Assembly (NCBI GenBank): GCA_021786945.1
Contig: JAJYMK010000003.1
Span: 103,105 to 149,298, forward strand
Direction: 5' to 3'
Length of the DNA: 46,194 nucleotides
Source: a bacterium
GTDB lineage: Bacteria; Patescibacteriota; Minisyncoccia; UBA6257; 02-FULL-45-10c
In this document: positions 30,637 through 37,438 of the stretch, one piece after another
How positions within the stretch are numbered: the first letter of the stretch is position 1
Layout of the letters: each line of letters opens with the position of its first letter
Position numbers and translations under genes: made by a program
The notes under the pieces: model-generated
Told to the model about the DNA's origin: nothing
Databases searched by the model: none
Seen by the model: the letters and a program-made list of their open reading frames with translations, nothing else

Positions 30637-30645
30637 TGGTATAAT
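30637..30645 (+). promoter_or_regulatory. Extended -10 promoter of the type I R-M operon.
   Basis: TGGTATAAT, with the hsdM ATG 9 nt downstream of the -10 and no SD. Confidence 0.55.
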
Positions 30646-30654
30646 ATAAACATT

Positions 30655-32112
30655 ATGTTCGAACAATCACTAAAAAATATAGACGATATTCTTCATCAAG
30701 ATGCTGGCTGCGCGACCGAGCTTGATTATATCGAACAGACTTCGTGGATTTTATTTTTGAAGTATCTAGATGATTTAGAAAAAGATAAAAAGACTGAAGC
30801 AGCTTTAGCTGGTAAGAAATATGATTTTATAATCGACGCTTCTTATCGTTGGGAGGTTTGGGCGATGCCTAAGACTAAAGATGGGAAATTAGATCATAAT
30901 TCCGCTTTATCCGGAGATGATTTGAAGGATTTTGTCGATCATAAACTTTTTCCGTATTTTAAAAAGTTTAAAACTGAGGCAGAAAATCCGGATACTATTG
31001 AATATAAAATTGGTGAGATTTTTTTTGAGCTTAAAAATAAAATTCAGAGCGGGCACAGGCTTCGTGAGATTTTAAATATCGTAGACGGCATGCATTTTCG
31101 TACTGATGCGGAAAAGCACGAGCTTTCTCATCTTTATGAGAGCAAAATCAAGAATATGGGTAATGCAGGCAGAAATGGCGGGGAATATTATACTCCGCGT
31201 CCGCTTATTAGAACGATTGTGAAAATTGTTGCTCCTAAAATTGGTGAAAAAATTTATGATGGAGCTTGTGGATCGGCTGGTTTTTTAGTGGAAGCTTTTG
31301 ATTATTTAACTAGAGAAAATAAAGATCGTTCCACTAAACAAAATGAGATTATCCAAAAAAAGACATTGTATGGGAAAGAAATAAAATCCCTTGCCTATAT
31401 TATCGGTGTTATGAATATGATTTTGCATGGTGTAGAAGCTCCGAATATCAGACACATGAATACCTTGGCCGAAAATATTTTAGATATTCAGGAAAAAGAT
31501 AGATACGATATTGTCCTTGCCAATCCGCCCTTTGGCGCTGGAATAGGCAGGGAAATTCAACAAAACTTTCCGATCAAAACGGGAGAGACGGCATTTCTTT
31601 TTCTTCAGCACTTCATCAAAATTCTAAAGGCTGGGGGCAGAGCGGGTATTGTCATTAAAAATACATTTCTTTCAAATACAGATAATGCCTCTGTATCGCT
31701 TCGCAAACTTCTTTTAGAAAGCTGTAATCTTCACACCGTGCTTGATTTGCCGGGTGGAGCCTTTCAGGGCGCTGGCGTTAAAACCGTTGTTTTGTTTTTT
31801 ACAAAAGGCGAGCCGACCAAAAAGATTTGGTATTACCAATTAAATTTGGATAGAAATTTAGGCAAAACAAATCCACTCAACGAAGAAGATCTTGAAGATT
31901 TTGTTGAATTGCAAAAGATAAAAGCTGACTCAGATAACTCGTGGAGTGTTGATATTTCAAAGATTGATCAAAATGCCATCGATTTATCTGTTAAAAATCC
32001 AAATAAAGGCGGGGAAGTAGTTTTGAGAGAGCCGGAGGAAATTTTAAAAGAAATTAAGAGACTAGATAAAGAAAGCATAAAAGAACTTAAAAATATTGAA
32101 TGCAAGTTATAG
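30655..32112 (+). CDS. hsdM: Type I restriction-modification system, N6-adenine DNA methyltransferase subunit M.
   Basis: HsdM N-terminal pattern 'EQTSWILFLKYLDDLE', SAM motif 'DGACGSAGFLV', catalytic 'VLANPPFGAG'. Confidence 0.95.
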   Translation: MFEQSLKNIDDILHQDAGCATELDYIEQTSWILFLKYLDDLEKDKKTEAALAGKKYDFIIDASYRWEVWAMPKTKDGKLDHNSALSGDDLKDFVDHKLFPYFKKFKTEAENPDTIEYKIGEIFFELKNKIQSGHRLREILNIVDGMHFRTDAEKHELSHLYESKIKNMGNAGRNGGEYYTPRPLIRTIVKIVAPKIGEKIYDGACGSAGFLVEAFDYLTRENKDRSTKQNEIIQKKTLYGKEIKSLAYIIGVMNMILHGVEAPNIRHMNTLAENILDIQEKDRYDIVLANPPFGAGIGREIQQNFPIKTGETAFLFLQHFIKILKAGGRAGIVIKNTFLSNTDNASVSLRKLLLESCNLHTVLDLPGGAFQGAGVKTVVLFFTKGEPTKKIWYYQLNLDRNLGKTNPLNEEDLEDFVELQKIKADSDNSWSVDISKIDQNAIDLSVKNPNKGGEVVLREPEEILKEIKRLDKESIKELKNIECKL

Positions 32113-35115: not shown

Positions 35116-35125
35116 TATATCAACA

Positions 35126-37438
35126 ATGAACGAATCAGAAACAAGAGCCGAATATATTGACCCGAAGCTTAAGGCGAGCGGTTGGGGTGAAGTTGAAGGA
35201 TCAAAGATCTTGAGGGAATTTAGAATTACCGATGGGCGTATTCAGGTGGGCGGCGTTCGCGCGAAGCCGGAAATTGCCGACTATATTTTGGTTTATAAAA
35301 ATAGAAAGATTGGCGTGATAGAGGCTAAGGCTGAAAGTTTGGAAGCGACTGAGGGTGTTGCGCAAGCTAAATCTTACGCTGAAAAATTACACATTGATTA
35401 TACTTATTCCACTAATGGCAAGGAAATTTATGAAATATCCATGAAAAACGGGCGTGAGGTGATTATTGATAAATTTCCAACACCCGACGAGCTTTGGGAC
35501 AAAACTTTTTCCGATCAAAATGAATGGAAAGATAAATTTTCATCAATTCCATTTGAGGATGTAAATGGCACTAAGGGGGTGCGATATTATCAGGAAATTT
35601 CTGTAAATAATACGCTTAATGCTATTGCCGAAGAAAAACAAAGGATATTGCTTACTTTAGCCACTGGCACGGGAAAAACATTTATTGCTTTTCAGATTGC
35701 TTGGAAGCTTTTTCAAACAAGATGGAATTTAAAGCGTGATGGAAATAGGCGCCCGAGAATTTTATTTCTTGCCGATCGAAATATTTTAGCAGATCAGGCA
35801 TTTAATGCTTTTTCGGCTTTTCCGGAAGATGCCTTGGTTCGCATCAATCCGCTTGATATTCGTAAACGCGGAGCAGTGCCGACCAGCGCCAACGTATTTA
35901 TTACCATTTTCCAAACTTTTATGAGTGGCTCAAATAATACGCCGTATTATGGTGATTATCCGCCAGATTTTTTTGATTTGATTATTATTGACGAATGTCA
36001 TCGCGGAGGTGCAAATGATGAGGGCAATTGGCGCGGAATTTTGGAGTATTTTTCTCCGGCCGTTCAGCTTGGTTTAACCGCTACACCAAAAAGGAAAGAT
36101 AATGTTGATACATATAAATATTTTGGCGACCCAGTTTATATTTACTCGCTTAAGGAGGGTGTAAACGACGGATTTTTGACGCCGTTTAAAGTTAAGCGTA
36201 TTCAAACCACTCTTGATGAATATGTATACACTTCCGATGATCAGATTATTGAGGGAGAAATAGAAGAAGGAAAGATATATGAAGAGGCTGATTTTAATAA
36301 GATTATTGAAATTAAAGAAAGGGAAAAGAAAAGGGTAGAAATTTTATTAAATGAAATAAATCAAGACGAAAAAACAATTGTTTTTTGCGCTAATCAAAAT
36401 CACGCATTGGCTGTAAGGGATTTGATTAATCAGTTTAAAGAAAGCTCTAATCCTAATTATTGTGTTCGTGTTACGGCAAATGATGGTGCTCGAGGAGAGC
36501 AATTTTTACGAGAGTTTCAAGACAATGAAAAAACTATCCCGACTATTTTGACGACCTCGCAAAAACTTTCAACCGGAGTGGATGCGCGTAATATTAGAAA
36601 CATAGTTCTGATGCGCCCTGTAAATTCTATGATTGAGTTTAAGCAGATTGTTGGGCGGGGAACCCGTCTTTTTGATGGAAAAGACTATTTTACAATTCTT
36701 GATTTTGTGGGGGCGTATAAACATTTTTCTGATCCTGCATGGGACGGTGAGCCAATAGACGAAACAGTTGAGTCTGATATCGAAAAAGTTTCCGTAGTAA
36801 AAGAACCAAAAGCACAATATGACGCCAGCATTAAATTTGAAGAAGATTTTGAATCTAAGAAAAAATTGAAGATTAAATTACGCGATGGAAAAGAGCGGGA
36901 AATTCAACATATGATCTCTACTTCGTTTTGGAGCGCAGATGGGAGGCCGATATCTGTAGAAGAATTTTTGAACAATATGTTTGGGGCCTTGCCAGAGTTT
37001 TTTAAGAGCGAAGAGGAACTAAGAAAAATATGGTCAAACCCCACCACGAGAAAAACTTTTTTGGAAAAGATCGCCGAGGCTGGCTACGATAAAGATTTGT
37101 TAGAAACATTACAAAAAATGATAGACGCAGAAGATAGTGATTTGTTTGATGTATTGGCGTATATCTCCTTTGCCGTGAAACCGATTTCTAGAAAAGAACG
37201 TGTAATTGAAACAAAAAATGAAGTTTTAGATCATCTTGATGAAAGGACGAAAGATTTTTTAGAATTTGTTTTGAATAAGTATATTGAAAGAGGAGTTGAA
37301 GAGCTTGATGAAGAAAAGTTGCCGCAATTGCTTAATTTGAAATATCACGCGATTGCTGATGCCGTAAATATCCTTGGCGATGTAGATAAAATTCGTTCAA
37401 CTTTTTTTGATTTTCAGAAAAATTTATATAGTAAGTAA
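35126..37438 (+). CDS. hsdR: Type I restriction enzyme, endonuclease/translocase subunit R.
   Basis: N-terminal 'ESETRAEYIDPKLKASGWG', Walker A 'LATGTGKT', DEAH-type 'IIIDECHRG', 'LTATPKR', and helicase motif VI 'QIVGRGTR'. Confidence 0.95.
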   Translation: MNESETRAEYIDPKLKASGWGEVEGSKILREFRITDGRIQVGGVRAKPEIADYILVYKNRKIGVIEAKAESLEATEGVAQAKSYAEKLHIDYTYSTNGKEIYEISMKNGREVIIDKFPTPDELWDKTFSDQNEWKDKFSSIPFEDVNGTKGVRYYQEISVNNTLNAIAEEKQRILLTLATGTGKTFIAFQIAWKLFQTRWNLKRDGNRRPRILFLADRNILADQAFNAFSAFPEDALVRINPLDIRKRGAVPTSANVFITIFQTFMSGSNNTPYYGDYPPDFFDLIIIDECHRGGANDEGNWRGILEYFSPAVQLGLTATPKRKDNVDTYKYFGDPVYIYSLKEGVNDGFLTPFKVKRIQTTLDEYVYTSDDQIIEGEIEEGKIYEEADFNKIIEIKEREKKRVEILLNEINQDEKTIVFCANQNHALAVRDLINQFKESSNPNYCVRVTANDGARGEQFLREFQDNEKTIPTILTTSQKLSTGVDARNIRNIVLMRPVNSMIEFKQIVGRGTRLFDGKDYFTILDFVGAYKHFSDPAWDGEPIDETVESDIEKVSVVKEPKAQYDASIKFEEDFESKKKLKIKLRDGKEREIQHMISTSFWSADGRPISVEEFLNNMFGALPEFFKSEEELRKIWSNPTTRKTFLEKIAEAGYDKDLLETLQKMIDAEDSDLFDVLAYISFAVKPISRKERVIETKNEVLDHLDERTKDFLEFVLNKYIERGVEELDEEKLPQLLNLKYHAIADAVNILGDVDKIRSTFFDFQKNLYSK

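What the first reader, a model, noticed from the sequence alone, without database searches (positions are those of the whole stretch)
30637..37438. Type I R-M operon (hsdM ... hsdS ... hsdR) interrupted by three tightly coupled unknown genes: candidate R-M-embedded accessory defence module
Seen in sequence: six same-strand ORFs run from 30655 to 37438 with gaps of only 4, 2, 2, 1 and 10 nt. No hairpin or T-run terminator lies between them, and a single extended -10 (TGGTATAAT) sits in front. hsdM (NPPFG), hsdS (two TRDs plus conserved spacers) and hsdR (Walker A, DECH box, motif VI) all look intact. A 126-aa two-TM protein and a 261-aa RelE/ParE-like, repeat-bearing protein are wedged between M and S. 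A 229-aa N-terminally anchored helical protein is wedged between S and R. I recognise none of the three as an R-M subunit. Established knowledge: type I loci are known hosts for back-up effectors. Examples are the PrrC anticodon nuclease inside the E. coli prr (hsd) locus and the Rlo ORFs in Campylobacter hsd loci. Inference: two small membrane proteins plus a toxin-fold protein, translationally coupled to the R-M subunits, look like an abortive-infection or toxin module that is guarded by or senses the R-M complex. I know of no described system with this gene order or domain set.
Basis: partly seen in the sequence, partly recalled or inferred. Interest (0 to 1): 0.88.

Follow-up and report, generated by a model that had tools for sequence, protein, structure and literature searches.

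The report
Accessory gene cassettes inside a restriction operon
An intact type I restriction-modification operon carries two unrelated, undescribed passenger units: a mobile two-gene membrane-protein/toxin-fold cassette and a rare membrane-anchored helical protein. Both sit in slots that hold known phage-defence genes in sister operons, so this is a fresh example of a known phenomenon, not a new kind of system.

Summary
Six same-strand ORFs (30655-37438) form an intact type IB (EcoAI-family) operon, hsdM-orfA-orfB-hsdS-orfC-hsdR, with gaps of 4, 2, 2, 1 and 10 nt.

The three unknowns are two independent cargos, not one module.

1. **orfA-orfB** is a strictly conserved, translationally coupled pair.
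   - A is a 2-TM protein.
   - B has a RelE/ParE-fold N-domain, 11 NPxxNxxI octads and a beta domain.
   - The pair occurs in 11 distinct contexts, including Ca. Lloydbacteria, Bacteroidota and Gammaproteobacteria genomes.
   - Three contexts are between hsdM and hsdS, including a divergent scaffold. Four more lie next to other defence genes.

2. **orfC** is a rare orphan: 16 clusters among 1.84 billion representatives. It has an N-terminal TM helix and an all-alpha body. Six of its eight contexts are type I operons.

In sister operons (HsdM/HsdR 72-80% identical), the M-S slot instead holds HEPN_Swt1, RhuM-like or OLD-like ATPase genes. The S-R slot holds orfC or DUF3800.

None of A, B or C matches Pfam, NCBIfam, PHROGs or PADLOC models. 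Embedding of defence genes in type I operons is already documented (PrrC, TgvAB, Payne et al. 2024).

The most likely reading is a self-contained toxin/abortive-infection-type cassette plus an R-M-associated accessory protein. No function has been tested. The quantised octad number (3, 7 or 11) is unexplained.

The parts
30637..30645 (+). Extended -10-like element TGGTATAAT, 9 nt upstream of the hsdM ATG. This implies a near-leaderless transcript if it is used.
   Evidence: Read directly. It is a consensus match only. The promoter scan as a whole is not above chance. DNA homology to sister operons starts only at 30654, so the promoter region is not shared.
30655..32112 (+). hsdM, type I N6-adenine DNA methyltransferase subunit (485 aa)
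   Evidence: Pfam N6_Mtase 6.6e-64 and HsdM_N 2.6e-10. PADLOC MTase_I 2.9e-159. NPPFG motif. It is 73-78% identical to HsdM of L001, L016 and L029.
32117..32497 (+). orfA, 126-aa membrane protein. It has two TM helices (about residues 11-42 and 53-73) and a conserved cytoplasmic tail, F.DD.YC.AY....CLPE. It is the upstream partner of orfB.
   Evidence: Hydropathy. Family alignment of 17 sequences with invariant F34, E37, W46, F55, F82, D84, Y87, C88, A90, Y91 and L97. It sits immediately upstream of a B gene (-4 to +4 nt) in every locus where it was found. The SLATT lead was not confirmed (2 of 17 members at E about 0.014).
32500..32775 (+). orfB N-terminal domain (residues 1-92), RelE/ParE fold
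   Evidence: AF2 model with pLDDT 90.7. Foldseek PDB hits: RelE 1wmi_A prob 1.00, target TM-score 0.65, rmsd 3.1; also 2khe, 3bpq and the ParE entries 6x0a and 5ceg. Pfam ParE_toxin in 5 of 23 homologs, best 1.5e-4. Profile against PDB: 2khe RelE E=0.033. Only R61 and D80 are nearly invariant.
32776..33039 (+). orfB octad array (residues 93-180): 11 copies of NPxxNxxI. Here there are 10 copies of NPRFNNLI plus NPRFNPNF. It is encoded by a 24-nt tandem repeat at 32775-33029.
   Evidence: TRF: period 24, 10.6 copies, 98% matches. The copy number is 11 in 17 of 28 family members, 7 in 3 and 3 in 5. It is confidently modelled (pLDDT 80-95) without regular helix or strand. Its pI is 12.
33040..33285 (+). 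orfB C-terminal beta domain (residues 181-261, acidic, with W[IV]G motifs), plus the stop codon
   Evidence: Eight beta strands in the AF2 model. No confident PDB or BFVD match. Conserved across the family, including members without the RelE-like domain. Its pI is 4.3.
33288..34424 (+). hsdS, specificity subunit with two target-recognition domains (378 aa)
   Evidence: Pfam Methylase_S 6.3e-25 in two stretches. PADLOC Specificity_I 5.6e-58. It is only about 35% identical to HsdS of the sister operons. DNA homology is restricted to the 5' end, the central region and the 3' conserved region.
34426..35115 (+). orfC, 229-aa protein with an N-terminal TM helix (about residues 10-35) and an all-alpha body. 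Conserved motifs are PPKFNRIYINEERLF, SQQIDIA.SSAKKFN and HLLRP.
   Evidence: Alignment A2 has 39 invariant columns. AF2 pLDDT is 89.2 with seven helices. No PDB match. No hit in Pfam, NCBIfam, PADLOC or PHROGs. Only 16 clusters match among 1.84 billion representatives. It lies in type I operons in 6 of 8 contexts.
35126..37438 (+). hsdR, type IB (EcoAI/FtnUII family) restriction subunit (770 aa)
   Evidence: NCBIfam NF046051, 842 bits against a cut-off of 550, full length. Pfam ResIII, EcoEI_R_C, Helicase_C and HSDR_N_2. It is 72-80% identical to HsdR of L001, L016, L028, L029 and L030.

Best explanation
The locus is an intact, horizontally acquired type IB R-M operon. Its conserved arms are hsdM and hsdR. 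Between them lies a variable centre that holds two independent passengers.

**Passenger 1, in the hsdM-hsdS slot: the orfA-orfB cassette.** It is self-contained and mobile. It most likely acts as a toxin/abortive-infection-type conflict module. Protein B is a soluble three-part protein: a RelE/ParE-fold domain, a fixed-length NPxxNxxI octad array and an acidic beta domain. It probably docks by its RelE-like domain onto the conserved cytoplasmic tail of the 2-TM protein A, the way type II toxins hold their antitoxin tails. This would give a membrane-bound complex that is released or activated on infection. Because it is co-transcribed with the R-M genes, it would act as a second line of defence. 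It does not need the R-M enzyme.

**Passenger 2, in the hsdS-hsdR slot: orfC.** It is a rare membrane-anchored helical protein found almost only in type I operons. It most likely works with the R-M enzyme itself, as a membrane tether, regulator or guard of HsdR.

**Shown:** gene anatomy, folds, pairing, distributions and the mosaic structure.
**Inferred:** co-transcription, the A-B interaction, toxicity, the defence role and any link to HsdR.
For: **The R-M operon is intact and type IB**.

**A-B pairing.** Every locus with A has B directly downstream, with a -4 to +4 nt junction. This holds in 11 distinct contexts. Named genomes include Ca. Lloydbacteria, Sphingobacteriales, Cyclobacterium, Bacteroidales and Alteromonadaceae.

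**A-B context.**
- Between hsdM and hsdS: the window, L001 and L019. L019 is a divergent scaffold with gene order R-M-A-B-S, HsdM 37% and HsdR 33% identical. Even so, the A-B cassette DNA is 73-77% identical to the window, and that homology runs into the hsdS 5' end.
- Next to other defence genes: an OLD-like ATPase island (L005), RhuM/PDC-S05 (L022), ABC-3C (L023) and a NucS-like nuclease (L026).

**Sister operons share the scaffold.** HsdM is 73-78% and HsdR 72-80% identical. Their M-S slot holds HEPN_Swt1/PDC-M34B-like (L016), PDC-S05-like (L029) or an OLD/AriA-like ATPase (L030). Their S-R slot holds C (L016, L028, L029, L030) or DUF3800 (L001).

**B has the RelE/ParE fold**. L026 keeps only A plus an 84-aa RelE-like protein.

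**The octad plus beta-domain part also occurs without the RelE-like domain.** In those cases it sits next to other effector-type genes: AbiV on an IncC plasmid, Trypsin_2 and PDC-S60, a Metallophos-STAND protein.

**The operon looks acquired.** GC is 26-37% for the six genes and 43.6% for both flanking genes.

**Literature.** Genes embedded in type I operons are usually defence genes (10.1101/2024.01.29.577857; PMC11411939; PMC3710099).
Against: - No function has been tested; the defence role rests on guilt by association.
- The samples are small: 11 contexts for A-B and 8 for C.
- Only R61 and D80 are nearly invariant in B's N-domain. The C-terminal catalytic segment of RelE is replaced by the octad array, so the domain may be a non-catalytic adaptor.
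- A is unlike any known antitoxin: it has no DNA-binding domain and is an integral membrane protein.
- No relatives of A or C turned up in IMG/VR, and none of C in plasmids. This says nothing on mechanism.
- Two C contexts (L032, L033) show no hsd gene on short contigs.
- Co-transcription is unmeasured.
Confidence: 0.55

Rival explanations
1. A-B is a plain addiction (post-segregational killing) toxin-antitoxin pair. It stabilises whatever DNA it sits in, here the variable centre of the R-M operon, and has no role in phage defence.
For: B has the RelE/ParE fold. The upstream partner gene overlaps B or lies within 4 nt of it, as in relBE and parDE. The cassette is mobile across phyla. Another TA pair (HigB/HigA) lies nearby in L036.
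Against: A is a 2-TM membrane protein without a DNA-binding or antitoxin-like fold. The RelE catalytic residues are not conserved. The large octad and beta-domain extension has no counterpart in addiction toxins, and it recurs beside Abi-type effectors. No A-B pair was found on plasmids; the only B-family plasmid hit is an octad plus beta-domain protein without the RelE-like domain or an A partner.
Confidence: 0.2
2. The inserts are accessory subunits or regulators of the R-M enzyme itself. They might anchor it to the membrane, control restriction alleviation, or act as a PrrC-like guard that is held inactive by the Hsd complex and fires when the enzyme is inhibited.
For: C is found in type I operons in 6 of 8 contexts. 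In the type IB scaffold it always sits directly between hsdS and hsdR. A-B is inserted between hsdM and hsdS in two divergent scaffolds. PrrC is a precedent (PMC12707154; PMC3710099).
Against: A-B occurs without any hsd gene in 8 of 11 contexts. Sister operons work with different genes in the M-S slot, or with DUF3800 instead of C. None of the three has a PrrC-like ABC ATPase or HEPN domain. For C this rival remains open, and it is folded into the best explanation.
Confidence: 0.15
3. The three ORFs are not real genes, or they are degraded fragments of hsdS or hsdM left by rearrangement.
For: The region has low GC (26-33%), and a perfect tandem repeat could create spurious ORFs.
Against: All three have full-length homologs at 35-75% identity, with conserved motifs, in unrelated genomes. 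The AF2 models are confident (pLDDT 90.7 and 89.2). There is no Methylase_S or N6_Mtase similarity. The octad array is conserved as protein even where its DNA is diverged.
Confidence: 0.02

Closest known systems
Defence genes embedded in type I R-M operons: PrrC in EcoprrI, TgvAB in V. cholerae VPI-2, and the HEC/PDC candidates of Payne et al. 2024 ('guilt by embedding')
   Same: Extra genes are wedged between hsd genes on the same strand. The slots are variable. In sister operons the cargo is made of recognised defence families: HEPN_Swt1/PDC-M34B-like, RhuM/PDC-S05-like and OLD/AriA-like ATPases. The A-B cassette also exists outside R-M operons.
   Different: A, B and C match none of the 5027 PADLOC v2.0.0 models, which include the PDC families. 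They have no ABC-ATPase/HEPN (PrrC) or GmrSD (TgvAB) domains. No phenotype is known.
Type II RelBE/ParDE toxin-antitoxin modules, and RelE-domain defence proteins such as HEC-07
   Same: B's N-domain has the RelE/ParE fold. The partner gene is upstream and translationally coupled. HEC-07 shows that a RelE-like domain can be fused to other domains in an embedded defence gene (10.1101/2024.01.29.577857).
   Different: The upstream partner is a 2-TM membrane protein, not a DNA-binding antitoxin. The RelE catalytic C-terminal residues are not conserved. The domain is N-terminal and followed by an octad array and a beta domain. The window's own protein does not reach any Pfam threshold.
Two-gene membrane-protein-plus-soluble-protein defence systems such as Kiwa KwaAB, and 2-TM effectors of the SLATT type (comparison recalled from general knowledge, not tested here except for SLATT)
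   Same: A small integral membrane protein is encoded immediately upstream of a soluble multi-domain partner, in defence neighbourhoods.
   Different: No sequence similarity to any PADLOC model of these systems. The SLATT_4 match is noise-level: 2 of 17 members at E about 0.014.
Solenoid and short-repeat proteins such as pentapeptide-repeat proteins
   Same: A short, Asn- and Pro-containing repeat with a fixed hydrophobic position. The copy number appears structurally constrained. In L023 a pentapeptide-repeat protein is encoded next to A-B.
   Different: The period is eight residues. There is no Pfam repeat match. The AF2 model shows no regular beta strands in the array.

Membership tests
Type I R-M system, family IB (EcoAI/EcoEI type) | HsdR matches the EcoAI/FtnUII equivalog model above its curated cut-off over its full length | tested here: met
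   NF046051: 842 bits against a cut-off of 550, residues 1-769 on profile positions 1-768. EcoEI_R_C 1.1e-26.
Type I R-M system, family IB (EcoAI/EcoEI type) | HsdM with the N6-adenine methyltransferase domain and NPPF motif; HsdS with two target-recognition domains | tested here: met
   N6_Mtase 6.6e-64, HsdM_N, and NPPFG in the translation. Methylase_S in two stretches.
Type I R-M system, family IB (EcoAI/EcoEI type) | Restriction and modification activity; assembly of the R2M2S complex | not testable with these tools
   Needs methylome data or biochemistry.
RelE/ParE toxin superfamily (orfB residues 1-92) | RelE/ParE fold | tested here: met
   Foldseek: 1wmi_A prob 1.00, target TM-score 0.65, rmsd 3.1 over 85 columns; 2khe, 3bpq, 6x0a and 9g12 also listed. 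The model has pLDDT 90.7.
RelE/ParE toxin superfamily (orfB residues 1-92) | Sequence match to a curated family model above threshold | tested here: not met
   The window's protein has no ParE_toxin or RelE hit in Pfam or NCBIfam; the PHROG RelE-like hit is E 0.18. Five of 23 homologs hit ParE_toxin, best E 1.5e-4. Profile against PDB: RelE 2khe at E 0.033.
RelE/ParE toxin superfamily (orfB residues 1-92) | Conserved catalytic residues of RelE-type mRNA interferases in the C-terminal segment | tested here: not met
   Only R61 and D80 are at least 90% conserved in 19 N-domains. In the alignment to 2khe, the match ends before the catalytic tail. The octad array follows directly.
RelE/ParE toxin superfamily (orfB residues 1-92) | Cognate upstream antitoxin with a DNA-binding domain that neutralises the toxin | tested here: not met
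   The upstream gene encodes a 2-TM protein with no antitoxin or HTH/RHH match. Neutralisation itself is not testable here.
SLATT 2-TM effector domain (orfA) | Significant match to a SLATT model across the family | tested here: not met
   SLATT_4 at E 0.014 (15 bits against a cut-off of 55) in 2 of 17 members. The other hits are assorted membrane proteins.
PrrC/RloC-type R-M guard | ABC-ATPase N-domain plus HEPN anticodon-nuclease domain | tested here: not met
   No such domains in A, B or C.
PrrC/RloC-type R-M guard | Found almost exclusively embedded in type I operons | tested here: inconclusive
   A-B: 3 of 11 contexts, so not met. C: 6 of 8 contexts, with two short contigs unresolved.
Known or candidate defence systems in PADLOC-DB v2.0.0 (including HEC/PDC) | Match to any of the 5027 models | tested here: not met
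   Zero families at E up to 1 for A, B and C. Neighbouring and sister-slot genes do match PDC-S05, PDC-S60, PDC-M34B and Old/AriA.
hsdS/hsdM fragments | Residual similarity to Methylase_S or N6_Mtase | tested here: not met
   None in Pfam or PADLOC.

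The most novel reading that the evidence does not exclude
The NPxxNxxI octad array plus beta domain is a previously unrecognised sensor or regulatory module of prokaryotic conflict systems. Its length is quantised (3, 7 or 11 octads). It is coupled to interchangeable effectors: a fused RelE fold, or an adjacent AbiV/HEPN, trypsin-like protease or STAND-phosphoesterase. With the 2-TM protein A it forms a new membrane-coupled abortive-infection system. In the small low-GC genomes that carry this operon family (possibly Patescibacteria; taxon not verified) this system has been wired into the variable core of type I R-M operons. orfC would be a new membrane-anchoring or guarding partner of type IB HsdR.
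Probability: 0.3. Interest if true: 0.75.

Novelty: new variant of a known kind. Interest (0 to 1): 0.5.

Why it matters
Patescibacteria are reported to have very few recognised defence systems (PMC12366544).

The locus offers two clean, testable candidates:
- A-B is a compact two-gene cassette that crosses phyla.
- Its octad-repeat/beta-domain module recurs beside several effector types. Its strictly quantised repeat number is a ready structural and genetic handle.

orfC may bear on the old observation, recalled from the literature and not checked here, that type I enzymes associate with the membrane.

It adds to, and does not overturn, the established 'guilt by embedding' picture.

Tried and rejected
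- **SLATT identity for orfA.** A weak NCBIfam hit did not hold across 17 family members.
- **'4-fold beta flower' for B's C-domain.** One of 23 members at E 0.05, and no Foldseek support.
- **PDB profile hit to Plasmodium pyridoxal kinase (6su9).** It is a low-complexity Asn-repeat artefact.
- **Related-locus scan with the whole B alignment.** It failed because no conserved stretch was found. The A alignment was used instead.
- **Viral origin.** No A or C relatives in IMG/VR. The only B hit in phage genomes is a repeat-only match. BFVD Foldseek gave nothing below E 0.01.
- **C in plasmids.** None.
- **The octad protein in E. coli genomes.** None.
- **Remote homologs of C.** Only 16 clusters. 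The single long hit, P0056, is a spurious repeat match, and there are no fusions to Hsd proteins.
- **Antisense ORF 32661-33008.** It is a by-product of the tandem repeat.
- **Comparison with the Patescibacteria defence genes LdgA and DdgA (PMC12366544).** Not possible: no sequences are held.
- **Taxonomy of the window.** I could not verify it. A Patescibacteria origin is possible (Ca. Lloydbacteria homolog; parent contigs of 0.7-1.2 Mb) but unproven.

Full report
**1. Observation**

The six + strand ORFs are present exactly as described.

| Gene | Coordinates |
|---|---|
| hsdM | 30655-32112 |
| orfA | 32117-32497 |
| orfB | 32500-33285 |
| hsdS | 33288-34424 |
| orfC | 34426-35115 |
| hsdR | 35126-37438 |

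The gaps are 4, 2, 2, 1 and 10 nt. TGGTATAAT lies at 30637-30645, only 9 nt before the hsdM ATG. If it is used, the transcript is nearly leaderless.

Consensus scans find no terminator-like site between the genes, and nothing above the shuffle expectation. Co-transcription therefore rests on spacing alone.

The R-M genes are complete.
- HsdM has N6_Mtase and HsdM_N.
- HsdS has two Methylase_S stretches.
- HsdR passes the NCBIfam EcoAI/FtnUII equivalog over its whole length, with 842 bits against a cut-off of 550. This places the system in family IB.

The 24-nt tandem repeat in orfB has 10.6 copies at 98% identity.

**2. The three inserts are real genes but match no described family**

Pfam, NCBIfam, PHROGs and PADLOC v2.0.0 give nothing significant for A, B or C. 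PADLOC does contain the 'PDC' embedded candidates, because neighbouring genes in related loci hit them.

Each insert has full-length homologs.
- A has 9 clusters in the indexed search, plus more distant copies recovered from loci.
- B has 23 clusters.
- C has 9 clusters.

An exhaustive profile search with C found only 16 clusters among 1.84 billion representatives. All are about 230 aa or fragments, and none is fused to anything. C is a rare orphan family.

**3. Anatomy**

*orfA* has two TM helices and a conserved cytoplasmic tail, F.DD.YC.AY....CLPE. Invariant residues include E37 and W46. A weak SLATT hit did not survive a family-wide scan.

*orfB* was modelled with pLDDT 90.7. It has three parts.
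- Residues 1-92 have a RelE/ParE fold. Foldseek matches 1wmi_A with prob 1.00 and target TM-score 0.65. Pfam ParE_toxin hits 5 of 23 homologs. The top profile hit in the PDB is RelE 2khe.
- Residues 93-180 are 11 NPxxNxxI octads.
- Residues 181-261 are an acidic beta domain with no confident structural match.

Only R61 and D80 are nearly invariant in the N-domain. The RelE catalytic tail is absent. The fold is established, but the enzymatic activity is not.

*orfC* was modelled with pLDDT 89.2. It has an N-terminal TM helix continuing into a long helix, then a helical bundle. It has no PDB match.

**4. Distribution: two independent cargos**

*The A-B pair.* A and B are always adjacent, with a -4 to +4 nt junction. 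This holds in 11 distinct contexts.

| Locus | Context |
|---|---|
| window, L001 | Between hsdM and hsdS, same scaffold |
| L019-21 | Order R-M-A-B-S. HsdM is only 37% and HsdR 33% identical to the window, yet the cassette DNA is 73-77% identical, and that homology runs into the hsdS 5' end |
| L002-4 | After an ORF6N gene |
| L005-7 | In an island with an OLD-like ATPase, DUF4357 and Hsd fragments |
| L022 | Before RhuM/PDC-S05 |
| L023 | After an ABC-3C system, in Cyclobacterium xiamenense |
| L024 | Bacteroidales |
| L025 | Ca. Lloydbacteria |
| L026 | Alteromonadaceae. Here B is only the 84-aa RelE-like domain, and a NucS-like nuclease follows |
| L036 | Near HigBA |

A-B is therefore a self-contained, horizontally mobile cassette. 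It is often placed in defence neighbourhoods and does not depend on R-M.

*orfC* behaves differently. In five loci with the same type IB scaffold it sits directly between hsdS and hsdR: the window, L016, L028, L029 and L030. In L011 it follows a different HsdR and a YgjP-like gene. Two short contigs (L032, L033) show no hsd gene.

**5. Mosaic structure**

The window, L001, L016, L028, L029 and L030 share HsdM at 73-78% identity and HsdR at 72-80% identity. HsdS is only about 35% identical.

DNA homology starts at the hsdM start codon and ends at the hsdR stop. Within the centre it is confined to the conserved hsdS segments and to whichever cargo is shared.

| Locus | M-S slot | S-R slot |
|---|---|---|
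| window | A-B | C |
| L001 | A-B | DUF3800 |
| L016 | HEPN_Swt1 protein, PDC-M34B-like | C |
| L029 | three small genes, one PDC-S05-like | C |
| L030 | OLD/AriA-like ATPase plus a tRNA_anti-like protein | C |
| L028 | not seen on the contig | C |

All six operon genes have 26-37% GC, against 43.6% in both flanking genes. The flanks differ between the window and L001. The operon is an acquired island with conserved arms and a recombining cargo-bearing core.

**6. The octad plus beta-domain module beyond A-B**

Family members that lack the RelE-like domain keep the octads and the beta domain. They sit beside other effector-type genes.
- An AbiV-family gene next to a retron, on an Enterobacter hormaechei IncC plasmid.
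- A Trypsin_2 protease that overlaps the gene.
- A Metallophos-STAND protein that matches PDC-S60 at 3.4e-68.
- A variant with a different N-domain, following a 140-aa gene with a faint HEPN signal.

A constant module next to swappable effectors is the usual signature of a sensor, adaptor or regulator in conflict systems. That is an inference.

**7. Quantised repeat number (unexplained)**

Of 28 family members, 17 have exactly 11 octads, 3 have 7 and 5 have 3. The three exceptions have 10, 8 and 5.

The number 11 is kept both where the DNA repeats are homogenised (the window, L022, L023) and where they are old and diverged.

Two loci with 99.9% identical flanks differ by exactly 8 octads, or 192 nt. 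This points to a structural period of four octads. I could not inspect the model coordinates.

**8. Comparison with what is known**

Embedding of defence genes within type I operons is well established.
- PrrC lies in EcoprrI (PMC12707154; PMC3710099).
- TgvAB lies in V. cholerae VPI-2 (PMC11411939).
- Payne et al. catalogued 17,432 embedded genes in 3,231 families across BREX, DISARM and type I systems. More than half had no assigned function. They proposed 145 PDC candidates (10.1101/2024.01.29.577857).
- Their HEC-07 carries a RelE-like domain.

The present locus is another instance of that phenomenon, with families that are not in the catalogue used here. It is not a new kind of system.

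**9. Verdict**

The best reading, at confidence about 0.55, is a type IB operon carrying two things: a self-contained toxin/Abi-type A-B cassette, and an R-M-associated accessory protein C.

Rivals:
- A plain addiction TA pair (0.2).
- True R-M subunits, regulators or guards (0.15; this remains live for C).
- Artefact or hsd fragments (0.02; refuted).

Interest is moderate. The most original elements are the phylum-crossing A-B pairing, the octad/beta-domain module with its quantised length, and the tight link between C and the type I operon.

Noticed in passing
window 32776-33039; alignment A1; L022-L025, L035: The number of NPxxNxxI octads in the orfB family is quantised. It is 11 in 17 of 28 proteins, 7 in 3 and 3 in 5; the exceptions have 10, 8 and 5. 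This holds across CPR, Bacteroidota and Gammaproteobacteria, whether the DNA repeats are homogenised or diverged.
   Followed up: partly
L002 1905-2693 versus L003 2989-3585: Two metagenomic loci with 99.9% identical flanks encode B proteins of 262 and 198 aa. They differ by exactly 8 octads (192 nt), which is recent in-frame repeat contraction or expansion.
   Followed up: yes
L035 (Enterobacter hormaechei IncC plasmid NZ_MF344572.1, 101054-101581): A 175-aa 'hypothetical protein' made only of 11 octads plus the beta domain lies 97 nt upstream of an AbiV-family gene. It is in a defence island with a retron (St85 RT and PtuA).
   Followed up: partly
L026 7914-8614 (Alteromonadaceae MAG): A minimal form of the cassette: an A-like 2-TM protein followed by an 84-aa protein that is only the RelE-like domain, with no octads and no beta domain. 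A NucS_C-like nuclease gene follows.
   Followed up: partly
L023 5277-10574 (Cyclobacterium xiamenense chromosome): A-B lies directly after an ABC-3C-type system (CTD11-HNH, then a DUF2326 ATPase) and directly before a 413-aa pentapeptide-repeat protein.
   Followed up: no
window 28778-37930: All six operon genes have 26-37% GC (orfA is lowest at 26.5%), against 43.6% in both flanking genes. DNA homology to sister operons starts at the hsdM ATG and ends at the hsdR stop, so the island equals the operon.
   Followed up: yes
window 30637-30657: The only good -10 element ends 9 nt before the hsdM start codon, and none of the six genes has a clear Shine-Dalgarno sequence. This suggests a leaderless or near-leaderless first gene and translational coupling for the rest.
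   Followed up: no
window 32661-33008 (- strand): The 115-aa antisense ORF (LNLGFIRL repeats) is a by-product of the tandem repeat, not a gene.
   Followed up: yes
L036 260-649: The public gene call upstream of B is a 74-aa fragment. The frame actually encodes a full-length A protein (HMM E 1.7e-35) that overlaps the B start by 4 nt. Automated counts of the A family will therefore be underestimates.
   Followed up: yes
L011 856-10723; L001 3585-4073: A related operon carries NYN, AbiJ_NTD4 and YgjP-like genes and an unknown 662-aa protein around hsdS, hsdR and orfC. A YgjP-like gene also lies a few genes upstream of the L001 operon.
   Followed up: no
window 11201-11274, 25964-26051, 28467-28769: tRNA-Pro(GGG) and tRNA-Ser(GGA) are the only Rfam or ARAGORN hits in the window. 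A 100-aa ORF that looks like the mechanosensitive channel MscL (judged by eye from its sequence) and a 598-aa ORF precede the operon. No other defence genes were seen next to it.
   Followed up: no
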